14,243 nt of DNA from a virus (taxonomy: Duplodnaviria; Heunggongvirae; Uroviricota; Caudoviricetes). The stretch lies in IMG/VR virus record IMGVR_UViG_2698536676_000001. The stretch is one strand, 5' to 3'. Under the pieces are notes generated by a model. That model was given only the letters and a program-made list of their open reading frames with translations. It searched no databases and was not told the DNA's origin. The position numbers and the translations under genes were made by a program. Shown here piece by piece: positions 1-13,349 of the stretch. Numbering within the stretch: position 1 is the first letter of the stretch; every line of letters begins with the position of its first letter.

Positions 1-65
1 AAAGTCGAATCTACAGACACTTCCGGCCTGCCAGTAACGTTTCCCGAACAACCAGAATGAGAGAA

Positions 66-93
66 GGCCCGCTATCGGGCCTTAATTTTTACT
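66..93 (+). terminator. Rho-independent terminator-like hairpin (GGCCCG-CTAT-CGGGCC) followed by T-rich tract; sits at a probable boundary between lambda-derived DNA and unrelated DNA
   Basis: Perfect 6-bp GC stem with 4-nt loop at 66-81, then TTAATTTTTACT on the plus strand; on the minus strand the same hairpin directly follows the TAA stop of the 826-aa ORF. A plus-strand reading frame ends at TGA 58-60 just upstream. Confidence 0.4.
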
Positions 94-2562
94 CTGGTTT
101 TTGTGGCCATTCAGGATTTGCCGTATCCACACGGCTGACCAGAACACTGTAGCGTTACGGGCCATGTCATACACTGCCTTCATCATCTGTGGACCTGGCA
201 GACCATTCGTACCGTCGTTCTGAATCACCACGTGATTGTTCTGATTAAAATTAATGCCTTCCGCCCGCCGCATCTGCGCCGGACTTCCGGCACCGCCCAC
301 ATAACCACCTTCCGCATAGCCGCGCATCAGCCGGTAGAGATTTCCCACGCCAATCCGGCTGGTTGCCTCCTTCGTGAAGACAAATTCACCACGGTGAACA
401 ATCCCCGCTGGCTCATATTTGCCGCCAGTTCCCGTAAATCCCCCGGTCGCAAAATGGAATTTTGCCGCAGCAGCCTGAATGGCTGTACCGCCTGACACTG
501 ATGCGCCACCACCGGCAGCACCGCCAATGGCGCTGCCGATACTCCCGACAATTCCCACCATTGCCTGCTTAAGCAGAATTTCTGTCATCATGGACAGCAC
601 GGAACGGGTGAAGCTGCGCCAGTTCTGCTCACTGCCGGTCAGCATCGCCGCCATATTCTGTGCAATACCATCAAAGGTCTGCGTGGCAGCACTTTTAACC
701 TGCGACATACTGTCCGTGGCGCTCTCTTTCCACTCACTCCAGCCTGACCTGAGGCCTGCCATCCAGCTCCCGCGAAGCTGGTCTTCAGCTGCCCAGGTCT
801 TTTTCTGCTCTGACATGACGTTATTCAGCGCCAGAGGATTATCGCCATACTGTTCCTTCAGGCGCTGTTCCGTGGCTTCCCTCGCTGCCTGCCGGTCAGT
901 CAGCCCCCGGTTTTTCGCATCAATGGCGGCCCGTTTTGCCCGTTGCTGCTGTGCGAATTTATCCGCCTGCTGTGCCAGCGCGTTCAGGTGTTCCTGATAG
1001 GTGACCTTGTCGCCAAGTGCAGCCAGCTGGCGTTTGTACTCCAGCGTCTCATCTTTATGCGCCAGCAGGGATTTCTCCTGTGCAGACAGCTGGCGACGTT
1101 GCGCCGCCTCCTCCAGTACCGCGAACTGACTCTCCGCCTTCCACAAATCCCGGCGCTGCTGGCTGATTTTTTCATTCGCTCCACTATGCTGCTCAAGCAT
1201 TTTTAGTTCAGCTTGTAACGCAAGAAGAGCTGCATGTGCTCGATCTTCCTGACGCTCTCCCGCAGCGGACTGCTTCGGCTTTTTCAGCGTCGCTTCATAG
1301 TCCTTTTTCGCCGCCGCCATCAGCGTGTTGTAATCTGCCTGCAGGATTTTCCCGTCTTTCAGTGCCTTGTTCAGTTCTTCCTGACGAGCGGTATATTTCT
1401 CCAGCGGCGTCTGCAGGCGTTCGTAAGCCTTCTGCGCCTCTTCGGTATATTTCAGCCGTGATGCCTCAGACTCGGCCCAGTCCTTTGCTGCCATCTCTCT
1501 GGCCTTTTCAAGATCGGCCTGCAACGTGGCGGCTGAAAGCCCAAGTTGCGCATTCGCTCTGTCCTCCCATGCTCCCCGGAGATTGGCAAGAAATGCTGAG
1601 GTTTTACCGCGCCGGTGGCTCCGGCTCTGATACCACTGCCATTTTTTGTCCGCCTCATCAAAAGCCTTTTCTGCTTTCTCCAGCATTCCCTGGGCAGTGT
1701 CCGGGCGACCAATATCCAGCACCGCATCCCACATGGATTTGAATGCCCGTGCTGTCCTGTCTGCCCAGGTCTCCAGCGTGCCCATGTTCTCTTTCAGGCG
1801 GAGGGTCTGGTCATCAAACCCTTTCGTTGCGGCCTCGTTCGCCGCCTGCAATGCCCCGGCTTCATCTCCGGAACGCTGCAACTGAGCAACATACGCAATC
1901 TGCTCCGCCGTCACGTTATGGAACTGACGTGCCATCGCTGTCAGTCCCGACGTCGGGTCTGTGGTCAGCTTCCCGAAGGCTTCAGCGACCTTGTCCACCT
2001 CCACGCCGGATGCAGAGGAGAAACGCGCCACACTCTGGCTGATCGCCTCAAACTGCTCACCACCACGCACACCGGCATTCACCAGCGCCGTCAGTGACTC
2101 GCTGGTCTGGTTAAACGTCAGCCCTGCCGCCTGCCCGGCTCTGGACAGGACCAGCATACGATCTGCCGTCAGTCCCGCCTGATTGCCGGAAAGGACCAGC
2201 GTTTTGTTGAAATCGGACAGGGTTGAGTTGCCCTGATACCAGGCATACGCCAGCGCACCGGTCGCCACCGCCAGCGAGGTGGCCCCCACCATCGGCAGGG
2301 TGATCGCACCGGCAAGCCCCCTGAACATGGGGATCATCCCGCCGAAGGAGTCCTTCACCTGACCACCCTGTTGCAGCAGGATCAGCCACGGACTTTGCCC
2401 GCCTGCAAGCTGCGTGGCCACGTCAGTGAACTGTGCAGGCAGCATACGCATGGCGGCTTTATACTGTCCGACGGAAATGGCCATTGCGGCGGCACCGGGC
2501 ACCGCCGTTCTGCTGATACGGCTGAGGTTTTCAACGGCCTGCTCAAGACCTTTTATGGCCAT
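82..2562 (-). CDS. H: Tail tape measure protein, chimeric: N-terminal ~29 aa of lambda tail completion protein Z fused in frame to lambda H (tape measure) from about H residue 47; C-terminal ~24 aa appear unrelated to H
   Basis: 826-aa ORF. N-terminus MAIKGLEQAVENLSRIS.TAVPGAAAMAI matches the remembered start of lambda gpZ; from ISVGQYKAAMRMLPAQFTDVATQLAGGQSPWLILLQQGG onward it follows lambda gpH (coiled-coil middle, Gly-rich hydrophobic segment, FATGGFTGTGG motif). GGGGGA Shine-Dalgarno 5 nt upstream of ATG; 11-nt gap to FII as for lambda FII-Z. Confidence 0.85.
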   Translation of the reverse strand: MAIKGLEQAVENLSRISRTAVPGAAAMAISVGQYKAAMRMLPAQFTDVATQLAGGQSPWLILLQQGGQVKDSFGGMIPMFRGLAGAITLPMVGATSLAVATGALAYAWYQGNSTLSDFNKTLVLSGNQAGLTADRMLVLSRAGQAAGLTFNQTSESLTALVNAGVRGGEQFEAISQSVARFSSASGVEVDKVAEAFGKLTTDPTSGLTAMARQFHNVTAEQIAYVAQLQRSGDEAGALQAANEAATKGFDDQTLRLKENMGTLETWADRTARAFKSMWDAVLDIGRPDTAQGMLEKAEKAFDEADKKWQWYQSRSHRRGKTSAFLANLRGAWEDRANAQLGLSAATLQADLEKAREMAAKDWAESEASRLKYTEEAQKAYERLQTPLEKYTARQEELNKALKDGKILQADYNTLMAAAKKDYEATLKKPKQSAAGERQEDRAHAALLALQAELKMLEQHSGANEKISQQRRDLWKAESQFAVLEEAAQRRQLSAQEKSLLAHKDETLEYKRQLAALGDKVTYQEHLNALAQQADKFAQQQRAKRAAIDAKNRGLTDRQAAREATEQRLKEQYGDNPLALNNVMSEQKKTWAAEDQLRGSWMAGLRSGWSEWKESATDSMSQVKSAATQTFDGIAQNMAAMLTGSEQNWRSFTRSVLSMMTEILLKQAMVGIVGSIGSAIGGAAGGGASVSGGTAIQAAAAKFHFATGGFTGTGGKYEPAGIVHRGEFVFTKEATSRIGVGNLYRLMRGYAEGGYVGGAGSPAQMRRAEGINFNQNNHVVIQNDGTNGLPGPQMMKAVYDMARNATVFWSAVWIRQILNGHKNQSKN

Positions 2563-2573
2563 ACATCCCCCTT

Positions 2574-2927
2574 TCAGCGGCGACGGTTAACGGCAGGCGG
2601 TACGCCCCGCCCAAGCCAGAGATGACAGCTTCCGCCATCATCCGGCGAAATCCGGTCTATCCAGAAGTTTTCCTCACCGATGGTCAGCGTGTCGCCGCGC
2701 CGCAGCTGCCGCACATCATCAGTCCGGACAAACAGGGACGGGCTGGAGCCTTCAACGCGCACGCCCTGTCCGGCATAGCTGATATTTTCAGGGTCATCAA
2801 AAACACCACGTATCACAGCACCGGACTGCTCACCGGATGTCATGGTGGCTGACGTTCCCATGTACCCGCGTATCGTTTCATCGGCGCAGGCAATGGCAGC
2901 ATCGAACAGGTTATCGAAATCAGCCAC
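2574..2927 (-). CDS. FII: Head-tail joining protein FII (lambda gpFII-like)
   Basis: 117-aa ORF MADFDNLFDAAIA.ADETIRGYMGTSAT... matching remembered lambda gpFII in sequence and length; position after FI as in lambda. Confidence 0.9.
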   Translation of the reverse strand: MADFDNLFDAAIACADETIRGYMGTSATMTSGEQSGAVIRGVFDDPENISYAGQGVRVEGSSPSLFVRTDDVRQLRRGDTLTIGEENFWIDRISPDDGGSCHLWLGRGVPPAVNRRR

Positions 2928-2938
2928 AGCGCCTCCCG

Positions 2939-3334
2939 TTATTGCATTCTGGCCAGGCCACGTTCTGTCATTTCGGCTGCCACACCGGCAGAGACACGAA
3001 ACGCCGTTCCCGGCAGCACAAATGCCACAGGTTCATCCCGCGTGGCGTGAAGTGCATCGGTATGCAGCGTCACCAGTGCCACAACCGTGACCAGAGCAGC
3101 CGTATCAGTCACGGTATCCGTCTGTGCTGATACCACCTCATTTTCATGTCCGGTCAGCGAATTTTCCGGGCTGACAGACGTGTCCTGACCGGCTGCGTCA
3201 TCCGTGTCATCAAGCTCCTCTTCCAGCTCTGCCACACGGAGCGCCAGTTCTTCTTTCGTCCCCGTCAGGCTGACATCACGGTTCAGTTGCTCACCCAGCG
3301 ACCGGAGACGGGCAATCAGTTCATCTTTCGTCAT
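2939..3334 (-). CDS. FI: DNA packaging / head assembly protein FI (lambda gpFI-like)
   Basis: ORF track gives 144 aa, but the start is placed at internal MTKDELIARLRSLGEQLNRDVSLTGTKEELALRVAEL (131 aa), preceded by GGAGG 5 nt upstream; 41-nt gap from E stop as in lambda. Confidence 0.88.
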   Translation of the reverse strand: MTKDELIARLRSLGEQLNRDVSLTGTKEELALRVAELEEELDDTDDAAGQDTSVSPENSLTGHENEVVSAQTDTVTDTAALVTVVALVTLHTDALHATRDEPVAFVLPGTAFRVSAGVAAEMTERGLARMQ

Positions 3335-3375
3335 GGACTCCTCCACAGAGAGACAATGGCCCCGAAGGGCCATGA

Positions 3376-4401
3376 TTACGCCAGTTGAACGGACACGAAC
3401 TCATCAGGATCAGCCAGCAGCATCAGCGGTGCTGACTGAATCATGGTGAACTCTCGCGCCGGATCGCCGGATGTCTTCCAGTTTTTCGGATAACGGGGAG
3501 ACGCATTAATACCCTCACTCAATGCATCCGCATCCTGAATACAGCCATAGGTGCGCAGACCGCGTGCATGAGTGTTCCCCAGCACCATCGTGTTGTCCGG
3601 CAGGAAGTTCTTTTTGACGCCGTTTTCCACGTACTGTCCGGAATACACGACGATGGCCACATCGCCATACATTCCCTTATAAGACACCGCTTTGCCCAGG
3701 TCTTTTACCGCTGTCTCCAGTTCGGAATGAGAGCCGCGACGGGTATCCAGCTTCTCCCTGACGGCTTTGAAGGAACGGAACAGCGCCCAGCCTTTCGGGT
3801 CAAACACGATGATATTCACCACGCCGCTGGCGTTCAGCGCGTAGGCTTCGATATCGTCGGTCGGGTCATACGTGGACTTGTCACGCTTGCTCCACTCCGT
3901 GCCGCCGGACTGCGTGATGTTGTTCGCCGCACTGCGGCCCATATCCACCTCGACCGGATCGAAGGCTTCACCGGTCATGGTGTATTTGCCCTTGAGCACG
4001 GCAGAAACGGCCTGCATCTCTTCGACCTGAGCAATGGCCTGCTCTTCGTCACGCATGTTCTGCATGATGATGCGACGGCGGCGGTAAGCCGGGTCCGCCA
4101 GATTCTGTGGATCTTCATCCGGCAGGCGACGCAGGGTCATCTGCGGATTCACCTCATGCTTCGGCTTGACATATCCCGGCGTAAATTCGGAGGTGGAGCC
4201 GCCACGGGAGCGGATAACCTCACCGGAAACAATCGGCGAAACGTACAGCGCCATATTTACCAATCCCGGAATTTGTGAGAGATAGACTTTCTCCGTGGTG
4301 AAGGGATAGCTTTCACGGAAAAAGAGACGCAGAAACAGCGGATCAAACTTAAATTTCTGCTCATTTGCCGCCAGCAGCTGGGCGGTTGTGTACATCGACA
4401 T
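3376..4401 (-). CDS. E: Major capsid protein E (lambda gpE-like, HK97 fold)
   Basis: Start placed at MSMYTTAQLLAANEQKFKFDPLFLRLFF... giving 341 aa, the lambda gpE length; near-identical to remembered lambda gpE along its length. The upstream 9 codons of the 350-aa ORF are regarded as non-coding. Confidence 0.95.
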   Translation of the reverse strand: MSMYTTAQLLAANEQKFKFDPLFLRLFFRESYPFTTEKVYLSQIPGLVNMALYVSPIVSGEVIRSRGGSTSEFTPGYVKPKHEVNPQMTLRRLPDEDPQNLADPAYRRRRIIMQNMRDEEQAIAQVEEMQAVSAVLKGKYTMTGEAFDPVEVDMGRSAANNITQSGGTEWSKRDKSTYDPTDDIEAYALNASGVVNIIVFDPKGWALFRSFKAVREKLDTRRGSHSELETAVKDLGKAVSYKGMYGDVAIVVYSGQYVENGVKKNFLPDNTMVLGNTHARGLRTYGCIQDADALSEGINASPRYPKNWKTSGDPAREFTMIQSAPLMLLADPDEFVSVQLA

Positions 4402-4413
4402 AAAAAAATCCCG

Positions 4414-4435
4414 TAAAAAAAGCCGCACAGGCGGC
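4414..4435 (-). terminator. Hairpin plus U-tract in the D-E intergenic region (terminator-like or attenuator / mRNA-stabilising structure)
   Basis: Minus strand reads GCCGC-CTGT-GCGGC followed by TTTTTTT, 55-nt intergenic space as in lambda. Function not inferable from sequence; E must still be expressed, so full termination is unlikely. Confidence 0.3.
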
Positions 4436-4456
4436 CTTTAGTGATGAAGGGTAAGG

Positions 4457-4789
4457 TTAAACGATGCTGATTGCCGTTCCGGCAAACGCGGTCCGTTTTT
4501 TCGTCTCATCGCTGGCAGCCTCCGGCCAGAGCACATCCTCATAACGGAACGTGCCGGACTTGTAGAACGTCAGCGTGGTGCTGGTCTGGTCAGCAGCAAC
4601 CGCAAGAATGCCAACGGCAGCACCGTCGGTGGTGCCATCCCACGCAACCAGCTTACGGGTGGAGGTATCCGGCATCAGCGGGGTCATTGCAGGCGCTTTC
4701 GCACTCAATCCGCCGGGCGCGGTTGCGGTATGAGCCGGGTCACTGTTGCCCAGCGGCTGGTCATGGGTAAAGGTTTCTTTGCTCGTCAT
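4457..4789 (-). CDS. D: Capsid decoration protein D (lambda gpD-like)
   Basis: Start placed at [37 protein letters not shown]... giving 110 aa (lambda gpD length); matches remembered gpD; 9-nt gap after C stop as in lambda. Confidence 0.95.
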
Positions 4790-4798
4790 AAACATCCC

Positions 4799-5404
4799 TT
4801 ACACTGGTGTGTTCAGCAAATCGTTAACGGCATCAGATGCCGGGTTACCTGCAGCCAGCGGTGCCGGTGCCCCCTGCATCAGACGATCCAGCGCAGTGTC
4901 ACTGCGCGCCTGTGCACTCTGTGGTGCTGCGGCCAGAATGCGGCGGGCCGTTTCCACGGTCATACCGGGGGTTTCTGCCAGCACGCGTGCCTGTTCTTCG
5001 CGTCCGTGAGCCTCCTCACAGTTGAGGATCCCCATAATGCGGCTGTTTTCTGCCGCAACCGCTGCGGTGATCTGCGCGTTCACGTCCGGCTGCGCCGCGC
5101 TGGCGTTTTCGCCATCCGTCGCTGGCTCCATGCTGGTGATGTCAGCCTGCGAGGCAGTAGCTGAAGCAGTTGTTGATTGAGTCTCTTTGGTCATTCGCCC
5201 TCCTGAGAGACGGGATTTACGTGCATCCAGTGCATCACGCATGACGGTGATCGCATCGGTGCTGTTAACAAGTTCATCAGCCAGTCCGGCATCAATGGCC
5301 TCCTGACCGCTGTACACTGCAGCTTCGGTATCCAGCACAGCCTGCACGGACAGGCCGGTATATGCCGACACCTTCTGCGCAAACATCCGGCGGGTTGCGT
5401 CCAT
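4799..5404 (-). CDS. Nu3: Scaffolding protein Nu3, in-frame internal start within C
   Basis: Internal ATG (MDATRRMFAQKVSAYTG...) yields exactly 201 aa to the C stop, the remembered lambda Nu3 length. Nesting of Nu3 inside the C frame is established for lambda; independent initiation here is inferred. Confidence 0.55.
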   Translation of the reverse strand: MDATRRMFAQKVSAYTGLSVQAVLDTEAAVYSGQEAIDAGLADELVNSTDAITVMRDALDARKSRLSGGRMTKETQSTTASATASQADITSMEPATDGENASAAQPDVNAQITAAVAAENSRIMGILNCEEAHGREEQARVLAETPGMTVETARRILAAAPQSAQARSDTALDRLMQGAPAPLAAGNPASDAVNDLLNTPV

Positions 5405-6098
5405 CCGGGACTGCAGTGTCTCCCGGACGTCATCAGGAAGATGGCTGTAGGGGTTGCCATCCACCTTATGGCTGCCGCTGTAAATCAGCGTGATTTCCAC
5501 CCCCTGTTTCTCCAGCGCAGCACCGTAATTACTGTGAGCCATCATGACGCCGATGGAGCCTGTCCGGGCGGTCTGTGTGACCAGACGCCGGGAGGCGGCG
5601 CTGGCAAGCAGCTGACCTGCACTGCAGTTCATGTCGTTGGCCAGCGCCCATACCGGTTTTATGTCACGCACACGGGCGATGATGTCAGCACAGTCAAATG
5701 CTCCCGCCACCATTCCGCCTGGCGTGTCCATATCCAGCAGAATGCCGTCCACCATCGGGTCGCTGGCAGCCTGTTGCAGACGGGCGATAATGCCGTTGTA
5801 ACCGGTCATCCCCGAATACGGCTTCAGCGCCCGCGTCCGGCTGACCAGCGTGCCGGACACCGGCAGCACGGCGATGCCGTTCATGACCTGATAACTGCGG
5901 GCCTGTCGTGGTCCGTCACCATCACCGGATAACGCCAGCGTCGCGGGTGCCTCTCCGGCTGTCAGGCTGTCGCCGGACACCGCATCCGTCAGGCGGCTGA
6001 TCCCAAGCTGGCCTGCAAGCGCACAAAAGAAAACCCGCGCATAGGCGGGTTCAAGCATCAGCGGCTCATTAAAAGCCATGCTGGCAATATGCGGGAGA

Positions 6099-6118
<20 letters not shown>
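4799..6118 (-). CDS. C: Prohead protease / scaffold protein C (S49 ClpP-like serine peptidase family, lambda gpC-like)
   Basis: GTG start at 6116-6118 preceded by AGGAGGAG, giving 439 aa (VTAELRNLPHIASMAFNEPLMLEPAYARVFF...), the lambda gpC length; start overlaps the 3' end of B by 20 nt as in lambda. The ORF-track extension to 6253 is upstream read-through in the same frame. Confidence 0.9.
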
Positions 6119-9093
<2,975 letters not shown>

Positions 9094-11017: not shown

Positions 11018-11656
11018 ATGAGCAAGCAAACAATATCTGAACGCATAACCCAACGTATGCATGCGCTAAACCTGAAAGGCAAAGACCTTGTCAATGCCAC
11101 TGGCGCATCAAAAGGCTCCGTAAGTCAATGGATGAACGGTGGAGGAGCGCCGTCCTCGCGTTACATAAGTTCACTGGCAAAGATATTGAAAGTAAACGAA
11201 AATTGGCTTCTTAATGGAGGAGAGTTAAATACAGGTGATTCGCTTGATCTATCTTTACCGCCGATAAAAACGGTTCCGCTACTATCACTTCAGCAGGCAG
11301 CAAGCTGGAGTGATTATATGAAAAATTCCTCAATAACCTCTTGTGTGCAGCTTGTCGGAGAAATCCCGGCCAATACCTTTGCAGTTGTTCTAGAGAGTGA
11401 CAGTATGTCAACATCTGGTGGGGGAGTTTCCATCCCAAATGGTTCAACAGTTTTTGTTGATCCCGATCGAACCGTACAACCAGGAAATATTGTCCTTGCC
11501 TTACCCAAAGGGACCACAACACCTGTCATTCGTAAACTGGAGATAGAAGGGCCGGATATTCTTTTAGTCCCCACGAATCCTCGCTACCCTTCAATTATGC
11601 TGGATGATCTATCTTGCATATTGGGCGTATGCTTTAAAATTCAACAAGATATTTAA
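11018..11656 (+). CDS. CI-like prophage repressor, HTH (XRE) N-terminal domain plus S24 LexA-like peptidase C-terminal domain
   Basis: 212 aa; HTH in ATGASKGSVSQWMNGGGAPSSRYISSLAKIL; S24 signature with Ser in LESDSMS and Lys in VIRKLEIEG; divergent from the cro-like gene; no Shine-Dalgarno upstream. Confidence 0.85.
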   Translation: MSKQTISERITQRMHALNLKGKDLVNATGASKGSVSQWMNGGGAPSSRYISSLAKILKVNENWLLNGGELNTGDSLDLSLPPIKTVPLLSLQQAASWSDYMKNSSITSCVQLVGEIPANTFAVVLESDSMSTSGGGVSIPNGSTVFVDPDRTVQPGNIVLALPKGTTTPVIRKLEIEGPDILLVPTNPRYPSIMLDDLSCILGVCFKIQQDI

Positions 11657-13296: not shown

Positions 13297-13349
13297 TTTC
13301 TGGTGACGTTTGGTGGTATCAGTTTTACTCCGTGACTGCTCTGCTGCCC
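13297..13349 (+). ncRNA. dicF: DicF small RNA homologue (antisense regulator of ftsZ and other mRNAs)
   Basis: TTTCTGGTGACGTTTGGTGGTATCAGTTTTACTCCGTGACTGCTCTGCTGCCC followed by TTTTT matches the remembered 53-nt DicF of Qin, with two substitutions in the terminal stem that keep pairing as G-U wobbles. Confidence 0.75.

What the first reader, a model, noticed from the sequence alone, without database searches (positions are those of the whole stretch)
82..2573. In-frame Z'-'H gene fusion: tail tube, terminator and chaperone genes are gone and the tape measure is chimeric
The 826-aa ORF starts with the remembered N-terminus of lambda tail completion protein Z, using Z's own ribosome-binding site and the lambda-like 11-nt FII-Z gap. 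After about 29 codons it switches in frame into lambda tape-measure protein H at about H residue 47; the junction codons are AAMAI|SVGQYK at about 2473-2481. A single deletion therefore removed the 3' part of Z, all of U, V, G and T, and the first ~46 codons of H without breaking the frame. The locus cannot make a tail tube, yet it retains a long translatable tape-measure-like protein under a head-gene-type translation signal.
Basis: partly seen in the sequence, partly recalled or inferred. Interest (0 to 1): 0.7.

Follow-up and report, generated by a model that had tools for sequence, protein, structure and literature searches.

The report
Tail-gene deletion scar in dead prophage
The 826-codon reading frame is a real but ordinary leftover of one 2,655-base deletion in a decaying lambda-like prophage; the unexpected part is that its left breakpoint is reused, to the nucleotide, by more than twenty other independent rearrangements.

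Summary
ORF 82-2562 (- strand, 826 aa) is Z codons 1-29, then tape-measure H residues 61-833, then a 24-residue frameshifted tail.

An intact progenitor exists in E. coli ATCC 43896. It differs by 1 base in 6,504 on the left and 0 in 2,324 on the right. It shows that one 2,655-bp (885-codon) deletion removed the rest of Z, all of U, V, G and T, and H codons 1-59/60. The junction is a 3-nt ATT microhomology at window 2476-2478.

The same junction occurs in 6 of 5,426 complete E. coli genomes, where it is annotated as two pseudogenes. The near-identity to the intact parent leaves too few substitutions to test for selection. In this prophage Q, the late-promoter region, the lysis genes, Nu1 and the 5' part of A are also deleted. 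I read the fusion as a recent, probably functionless remnant whose reading frame survived by a one-in-three chance.

Z nt 87-90 is also a one-sided recombination hotspot. At least 20 distinct junctions to different partners share it, and the partner sites share a CYGGNTA motif. The mechanism is unresolved.

The parts
2476..2562 (-). Z' : codons 1-29 (nt 1-87) of the lambda-type tail completion gene Z, with its own ATG
   Evidence: Identical to Z nt 1-87 of the intact prophage L003. Pfam Minor_tail_Z matches residues 3-36.
2563..2573 (-). 11-nt FII-Z spacer carrying the GGGGGA ribosome-binding site
   Evidence: Read directly from the sequence. Identical to the parent.
2476..2478 (-). ATT microhomology at the deletion junction, shared by Z codon 29 and H codon 60
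   Evidence: The left match ends at window 2476 and the right match starts at window 2478.
155..2478 (-). 'H' : tape-measure gene H from codon 60/61 to codon 833
   Evidence: 0 mismatches in 2,324 nt against L003 15160-17483. Pfam TMP_2 and Tape_meas_lam_C match. 92-95% identical to the tape-measure genes of lambda-like phages.
82..156 (-). Second junction (CGTAA|CGCTAC, AA microhomology), then the last 68 nt of a tail-fibre-assembly gene read in the +1 frame. This gives a 24-residue nonsense tail and a TAA stop at 82-84.
   Evidence: Window 156-1 equals the reverse complement of L001 18527-18682.
64..83 (+). G+C-rich hairpin (AAGGCCCGCTATCGGGCCTT) between the convergent tail-fibre-assembly genes. 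The T-run follows it only on the + strand.
   Evidence: Terminator scan.
2574..2927 (-). FII head-tail joining gene, intact, directly upstream of the fusion
   Evidence: Pfam Phage_attach, E = 2e-19. Annotated in L003.
2939..8979 (-). Head genes 'A (3' part only), W, B, C/Nu3, D, E and FI. These are retained and co-oriented with the fusion.
   Evidence: Gene calls with Pfam families on the same contig. 1 mismatch in 6,504 nt against L003.
8978..9091 (-). DUF977' fragment (38 codons) joined out of frame to 'A at 8978/8979. This deletion removed Q, the region where the late promoter would lie, the lysis genes, Nu1 and the 5' part of A.
   Evidence: Junction mapped against L001 and L003. The same junction is annotated in strain E925.

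Best explanation
The ORF is a deletion scar in a defective lambda-like prophage, the one that sits between potC and potB in enterotoxigenic E. coli lineages.

One illegitimate recombination event joined Z nt 87 to H nt 178 through a 3-nt ATT microhomology. It excised 2,655 bp: the 3' part of Z, all of U, V, G and T, and H codons 1-59/60. Because 2,655 is a multiple of three, Z's start codon and ribosome-binding site now head a protein made of Z1-29 and H61-833. A later, separate deletion at H codon 833 replaced the last 22 residues with 24 out-of-frame residues.

Shown directly:
- the two junctions and the existence of an intact parent;
- the order of events, since contigs exist that carry the Z'-'H junction with an intact H 3' end;
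- the loss of every tail-tube, terminator and chaperone gene.

Inferred:
- The product has no function. It lacks the H N-terminus and C-terminus, it has no tube or chaperones to work with, and the late-promoter region and Q are deleted.
- It can be transcribed only by read-through from the early pR-like operon, and only when the CI-like repressor is inactivated.
- The frame is preserved by chance (one in three) and by youth.

The left breakpoint was not random. Z nt 87-90 is a recurrent, one-sided breakpoint used by at least 20 independent rearrangements, so the event was probably channelled by a local property of that sequence. What that property is remains unresolved.
For: Intact parent: ATCC 43896 matches window 155-8979 in two pieces that are 2,655 bp further apart. 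It differs by 1 mismatch in 6,504 nt and 0 in 2,324 nt.

Junctions: the Z-H junction and its microhomology are mapped. The 3' junction is mapped. Contigs L011, L014, L015 and L020 carry the Z'-'H junction with an intact H 3' end.

Distribution: the junction is found in only 6 of 5,426 complete genomes, all E-numbered human isolates (two with recorded origin, from Nepal and Bangladesh). NCBI's pipeline annotates it there as two pseudogenes. The exact 826-aa protein is seen on only 2 contigs.

Expression context: Q, the lysis genes, Nu1 and the 5' part of A are deleted upstream.

Hotspot:
- DNA-level junction types A-J have partners H60, H140, lom, Rhs, stf, an e14-like early region, L and stfQ, and they lie in different prophages and chromosomal sites.
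- 13 further protein clusters diverge from Z exactly after residue 29 or 30, against single clusters at residues 51, 71, 96 and 103 and two at residue 75, some of which may be frameshifts.
- The same pattern search at three control positions in Z found no junction.
Against: Nothing contradicts a deletion origin.

Against 'no function':
- The ORF keeps a good ribosome-binding site.
- It lies downstream of a co-oriented early operon with no strong terminator predicted between them, apart from one candidate at 6052-6031.
- No expression data were available.
- Too little divergence has accumulated to test for purifying selection.

Against a simple random microhomology deletion: the left breakpoint recurs with nucleotide precision.
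Confidence: 0.9

Rival explanations
1. The break at Z nt 87/88 was made by a sequence-directed process, such as a nuclease, a recombinase or transposase-like activity, or a structure-dependent template switch. On this view it was not an untargeted microhomology deletion, and the fusion is one product of a specific prophage-breaking mechanism.
For: More than 20 independent junctions share the left breakpoint within 3 nt. No reciprocal junction retaining the right part of Z was found. Outcomes include deletions, inversions and joints to other prophages or to the chromosome.

Twelve parental partner sites share a motif on the discarded side: C at -7 in 10/12, G at -5 in 8/12, G at -4 in 11/12 (P = 2e-6), T at -2 in 11/12 and A at -1 in 12/12. 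The G and C positions are not homologous to Z in that register.

ATGGCCNNTAA occurs only twice in the 23.5-kb parent locus (both strands searched). One copy is at this site. The other is at the H 3' site, where two independent truncations lie 1 nt apart.
Against: No enzyme or known site fits. Hin/Pin crossover sites, the IS5 target, Xer/dif, Chi and common IS ends do not match. The Pin sites were compared directly with the sequence; the other comparisons rest on recalled consensus sequences. The local DNA fold is no more stable than shuffled controls (z = -0.4). A pattern search for further H 3' junction types found none. Part of the ascertainment was position-specific.
Confidence: 0.5
2. The fusion is a selected, functional protein, for example a dominant-negative tape measure that poisons tail assembly of superinfecting lambdoid phages, or a bait for an immune sensor.
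For: The long frame is open and has a good ribosome-binding site. The TMP_2 and Tape_meas_lam_C domains are retained. The ORF is co-oriented with the early operon.
Against: It differs from the intact parent at 1 of 8,828 nt, so openness needs no selection. The carriers found are few and nearly identical: 6 of 5,426 complete genomes, and 2 contigs for the exact protein. Sister strains truncate the C-terminus differently, and one lineage (E925) lacks the region altogether through a C'-'J deletion. Several other junctions at the same hotspot are out of frame.
Confidence: 0.05
3. The junction is an assembly chimera, or the 29 residues are the native N-terminus of a variant tape-measure protein.
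For: The window is a whole short-read contig that ends in a repeated tail-fibre region.
Against: The identical junction is present in six complete chromosomes and several independent assemblies. Only 3 nt of shared sequence lie at the joint, far below any assembler word length. The intact parent shows that the 29 codons belong to Z, which is separated from H by U, V, G and T.
Confidence: 0.01

Closest known systems
Phage lambda tape-measure protein gpH (Pfam TMP_2 + Tape_meas_lam_C)
   Same: 773 residues are collinear with H. They are identical in DNA to the H of the ATCC 43896 prophage and 92-95% identical in DNA to H of lambda-like phages. Both Pfam domains are present.
   Different: It lacks H residues 1-60 and 834-855. 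It carries 29 foreign N-terminal residues and 24 nonsense C-terminal residues. It is not flanked by the G/T chaperone genes or by M.
Phage lambda tail completion protein gpZ (Pfam Minor_tail_Z)
   Same: The start codon, ribosome-binding site, 11-nt spacing from FII and the first 29 codons are those of Z.
   Different: Only 29 of 192 residues remain, so it cannot be a functional Z. The Pfam score (25.0 bits) barely passes the cut-off of 23.9.
Deletion-decayed cryptic lambdoid prophages of E. coli (Qin, DLP12, Rac and the defective prophages of pathogenic lineages)
   Same: Stepwise loss of blocks of genes through short-homology deletions, leaving truncated and fused pseudogenes. The Qin-site and DLP12-site prophages of other strains carry Z' fragments that end at the same nucleotide.
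   Different: In the part of the literature I could search, I found no report of a nucleotide-precise, one-sided breakpoint shared by many independent events.
In-frame internal deletions of lambda H that shorten the tail (Katsura and Hendrix; from my own knowledge, not checked here)
   Same: An in-frame deletion that leaves a shorter but translatable tape measure.
   Different: Those mutants keep the H termini and all other tail genes and still build tails. Here the N-terminus is replaced and no tail tube can be made.

Membership tests
Lambda-type tape-measure protein (gpH) | TMP_2 and Tape_meas_lam_C domains | tested here: met
   Pfam E = 1.4e-69 and 5.3e-21.
Lambda-type tape-measure protein (gpH) | Complete N- and C-termini (855 aa in the parent) | tested here: not met
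   Residues 1-60 and 834-855 are absent.
Lambda-type tape-measure protein (gpH) | Encoded between the G/T chaperone genes and M, within a tail operon that includes the tube gene V | tested here: not met
   U, V, G and T are deleted. M to stf are deleted downstream of window 155.
Tail completion protein gpZ (Minor_tail_Z) | Domain of about 190 residues | tested here: not met
   Only profile positions 1-34 of 190 are matched. 29 of 192 codons are retained.
Prophage pseudogene formed by deletion | An intact collinear progenitor exists, and the difference is a single gap | tested here: met
   ATCC 43896: two collinear blocks, 1 mismatch in 8,828 nt, and a 2,655-bp gap.
Prophage pseudogene formed by deletion | No evidence of selection or of spread beyond one lineage | tested here: inconclusive
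   Found in 6 of 5,426 genomes, all nearly identical. There is too little divergence for a dN/dS test.
Short-homology (microhomology) illegitimate recombination | A few shared bases at the joint and no long repeat | tested here: met
   ATT at the Z-H joint, AA at the H-tfa joint and CA at the DUF977-A joint.
Site-specific inversion systems (Hin/Gin/Cin/Pin) | 26-bp crossover site of the form TTATCNAAAACC-NN-GGTTT..., with exchange at the central dinucleotide | tested here: not met
   The prophage's own sites (TTATCTAAAACCTCGGTTTACAGGAA) do not resemble the Z site, and exchange at those sites would lie 12 nt from the observed joints.

The most novel reading that the evidence does not exclude
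Z nt 87-90 (GCAATGGCCATT^A^AC) of lambda-type prophages is the fixed end of an unrecognised, sequence-directed breakage-and-joining process. The process repeatedly joins the retained head-gene side to targets of the form CYGGNTA^. It produces nested deletions, inversions and inter-prophage joints, and it is a major route by which these prophages lose their tails. The Z'-'H fusion is one of its products.
Probability: 0.35. Interest if true: 0.7.

Novelty: new member of a known kind. Interest (0 to 1): 0.35.

Why it matters
The fusion matters little on its own. It marks this prophage as unable to build a tail, and it shows how recently the decay happened.

The recurrent breakpoint could matter more. 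Prophage decay is usually treated as random deletion filtered by selection. A nucleotide-precise, one-sided hotspot with a partner-site motif would mean that part of the decay is mechanistically channelled.

It would also give a defined 100-bp substrate for studying illegitimate recombination in E. coli. And it would explain why Z' stubs ending at the same base appear in Qin-site, DLP12-site, potC-site and other prophages.

Tried and rejected
- Assembly artefact. Rejected.
- Native tape-measure N-terminus or an alternative gene order. Rejected.
- The DUF977'-'A joint as a second in-frame fusion. Rejected, because the DUF977 frame (GTG at 9091) differs from the A frame.
- K-12 Rac as a carrier of the Z' stub. 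There was no similarity.
- The Pin invertase as the agent. The H 3' joint lies about 370 bp upstream of the left inverted repeat in E54 and E1316, and the crossover sites do not resemble the Z site.
- The 10-mer GGCCATTATC beside one Pin site as a template for the frequent 'TC' after the joint. It is present only in some strains, so I treat it as coincidence.
- IS5 (YTAR target), Xer/dif, Chi, integron core sites, gyrase 4-bp stagger and common IS termini. I compared these from memory and none fits the register.
- Hairpin protection of a 3' end. The 8-bp stem ATGGCCAT(1-8)/(79-86) ends 1-2 nt before the break, but the fold is not unusually stable. The clean TGGCCA-loop-TGGCCA hairpin exists only in other Z alleles.
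- A second hotspot at H codon 833. There are only two junction types, and no more were found.
- Metagenome and species-representative genome scans with a 17-base pattern.
- Full-length Z protein search. It listed only near-full-length relatives and was uninformative for truncations.
- Literature searches. They found nothing on this breakpoint.
Full report
**What is there**

The window is the whole contig JPXL01000174.1 of a draft E. coli assembly. It carries the immunity and early region of a lambdoid prophage, followed on the - strand by a 3' fragment of terminase gene A and then W, B, C/Nu3, D, E, FI and FII. After these comes an 826-codon ORF at 82-2562. The ORF starts 11 nt after the FII stop codon, behind a GGGGGA ribosome-binding site.

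**Checking the fusion**

A search of 5,426 complete E. coli genomes found a virtually identical but intact head-tail region in strain ATCC 43896. There the gene order is FII-Z-U-V-G-T-H-M-L-K-I-J. The window matches it in two collinear blocks, with 1 mismatch in 6,504 nt and 0 in 2,324 nt.

- The left block ends at Z nt 87.
- The right block begins at H nt 178.
- The two blocks overlap in ATT, at window 2476-2478.
- 2,655 bp, or 885 codons, are missing.

The protein is therefore Z1-29 joined to H61-833, with I29 equivalent to H I60. Pfam agrees: a marginal Minor_tail_Z match at the N-terminus, then TMP_2 and Tape_meas_lam_C.

H homology stops at window 155, which is H residue 833. The joint reads CGTAA|CGCTAC. 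After it the ORF runs in the +1 frame through the last 68 nt of a tail-fibre-assembly gene. This adds 24 nonsense residues before a TAA stop at 82-84. Everything from the end of H through M, L, K, I, J, lom and most of the tail-fibre region is gone.

**Distribution and age**

The junction-spanning 100-mer is present in 6 of 5,426 complete genomes: E8, E54, E1316, E1648, E1654 and E1739, all from human hosts. For the two whose records I read, the origins are Nepal and Bangladesh. In these genomes the prophage lies between potC and potB, and NCBI's pipeline annotates the fusion as two pseudogenes.

Five IMG/VR contigs also carry the junction. Four of them still have an intact H 3' end, so the Z-H deletion came first and the C-terminal truncations came later.

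Sister strains have decayed differently:

- E1316 and E54 have a B'-'FII deletion and an H'-'stf joint.
- E925 shares the window's DUF977'-'A joint but has a C'-'J deletion that removed the whole region.

The exact 826-aa protein is on record from two contigs only.

**Likely consequences**

- No tail tube, terminator or chaperone gene remains in this prophage, so it cannot make tails.
- The DUF977'-'A deletion also removed Q, the region where a lambda-type late promoter would lie, the lysis genes, Nu1 and the 5' part of A.
- The head genes and the fusion now lie downstream of, and co-oriented with, the cro/ydaT early operon. That operon is under a CI-like repressor encoded at 11018-11656.
- Consensus scans show only weak terminator candidates in between. 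Read-through after SOS induction is therefore conceivable, but it was not tested.
- With 1 substitution in 8.8 kb relative to the intact parent, the open frame needs no selective explanation. A random deletion has a one-in-three chance of being in frame.

I conclude with about 0.9 confidence that this is a recent, probably functionless remnant.

**The unexpected part: a recurrent breakpoint**

A second, unrelated Z'-'H junction turned up in four German isolates (L002). It has the same left breakpoint, GCAATGGCCATTA|, but it enters H at about nt 420 and is out of frame. Further junctions with the same left end are listed below.

| Source | Partner |
|---|---|
| W21 (DLP12-site prophage) | Rhs gene, antisense |
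| SCZE5 (Qin site) | lom |
| PCP06173 (Qin site) | 3' end of stfQ |
| TW14425 | inverted early region of another prophage |
| IMG/VR contig L017 | gene L |
| IMG/VR contig L012 | stf, inverted |
| Metagenome contig L270 | unidentified |

I then ran controls and less biased samples:

- The same pattern search at Z nt 50/51, 66/67 and 110/111 found no Z-related junction.
- A search for the reciprocal product, with the right part of Z retained, found none.
- In a sample of about 120 IMG/VR loci chosen only for containing the Z start, the only true junctions were at nt 87 and nt 94.
- I searched the first 30 residues against 1.84 billion cluster representatives. This returned 39 clusters.
  - 13 diverge from Z exactly after residue 29 or 30. 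Their partners include G, T, K, L, I, lom, stf and a terminator hairpin.
  - Other positions have single clusters at residues 51, 71, 96 and 103 and two at residue 75, some of which may be frameshifts. The rest are frameshifts and adapter chimeras.

This last sample favours short Z stubs, because longer ones would cluster with full-length Z. It would still have detected breaks anywhere between about residue 20 and residue 60.

**Features of the hotspot**

- Only the left, head-gene side is retained.
- Outcomes include deletions, inversions and joints outside the prophage.
- Two Qin-site variants share the left end but have different right ends. This is consistent with nested events from a determinant that stays on the retained side.
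- Twelve parental partner sites show a motif on the discarded side, C-Y-G-G-N-T-A|: C at -7 in 10/12, G at -5 in 8/12, G at -4 in 11/12 (P = 2e-6), T at -2 in 11/12 and A at -1 in 12/12.
- The TA in that motif is microhomology with Z T87 and A88. The G and C positions are not matched by Z in that register.
- ATGGCCNNTAA occurs only twice in the 23.5-kb parent locus (both strands searched). One copy is at this site and the other is at H codon 833.
- Two independent H truncations lie 1 nt apart at H codon 833. They arose in sublineages that differ by the B'-'FII deletion. No further junction types were found at that second site.

I could not identify the mechanism. Pin/Hin sites, IS5, Xer, Chi, gyrase stagger and IS ends do not fit. 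The Pin sites were compared directly and the rest from memory. The local stem ATGGCCAT(1-8)/(79-86) ends 1-2 nt before the break, but the fold is not unusually stable.

**Verdict**

The interest lies in the recurrent, nucleotide-precise breakpoint it uses. That breakpoint is robustly recurrent, it is unexplained, and I found no mention of it in the literature I could search.

Noticed in passing
window 2473-2478 (Z nt 85-90); loci L002, L008, L009, L012, L013, L017, L088, L151, L270, L392; proteins P0121-P0143: More than 20 independent junctions in different prophages and strains share the left breakpoint at Z nt 87-90. Only the head-gene side is kept, and the partner sites share C-Y-G-G-N-T-A on the discarded side. 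The mechanism is unknown.
   Followed up: partly
window 152-158; L001 16709/16710; L005 11709/11710: The H 3' truncation in the window (CGTAA|CGCTAC, joined to a tfa gene) lies 1 nt from an independent truncation in E54 and E1316 (CGTAAG|CGCC, joined to stf). Both sit on the only other ATGGCCNNTAA in the parent locus.
   Followed up: partly
window 8978-9091: A DUF977'-'A joint with CA microhomology, out of frame, deleted Q, the late-promoter region, the lysis genes, Nu1 and the 5' part of A. The head genes now lie directly downstream of the early operon. The identical joint occurs in strain E925.
   Followed up: yes
window 13298-13349 (+): A full-length DicF small RNA (Rfam RF00039, 66.9 bits) lies in the early-left region. 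In strain E925, whose sequence is identical to this part of the window, a dicB gene is annotated in the region that continues beyond the window's end.
   Followed up: no
L001 17080-20236 versus L005: The tail-fibre segment bounded by 33-bp inverted repeats (Pin-type site TTATC.AA.ACCTCGGTTTACAGGAA) is in opposite orientation in E1316 and E54. It has therefore flipped since these near-identical strains diverged, even though only a 65-residue recombinase fragment is annotated next to it.
   Followed up: partly
window 5158, 6287 and 8978; L001, L004: The pattern of shared deletions does not fit one tree. The window shares DUF977'-'A with E925 and Z'-'H with E1316 and E54. E925 keeps J-lom-stf, and E1316 keeps DUF977 to Q. 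This implies recombination between prophage variants or recurrent identical events.
   Followed up: no
window 11018-11656 (+): A 212-aa CI-like repressor ORF (HTH plus Peptidase_S24) is open in the window. In identical sequence in RefSeq genomes only the C-terminal 112 aa are annotated, as 'LexA family protein'.
   Followed up: no
L003 2448-7080: In ATCC 43896 the otherwise intact progenitor prophage has an IS66-family element (ISCro1) inserted in terminase gene A, so that copy is defective too.
   Followed up: no
L151 14038-14139 and flanks: In TW14425 the Z' stub is joined to an inverted early region of a second prophage. That region is followed by an integrase and by yjjG-rimI-holD, which suggests a large chromosomal inversion with one end at the Z hotspot.
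   Followed up: partly
window 1-156: The contig ends 81 nt after the ORF's stop codon, inside the repeated tail-fibre-assembly region. What follows the H'-tfa joint in this strain is therefore unknown.
   Followed up: no
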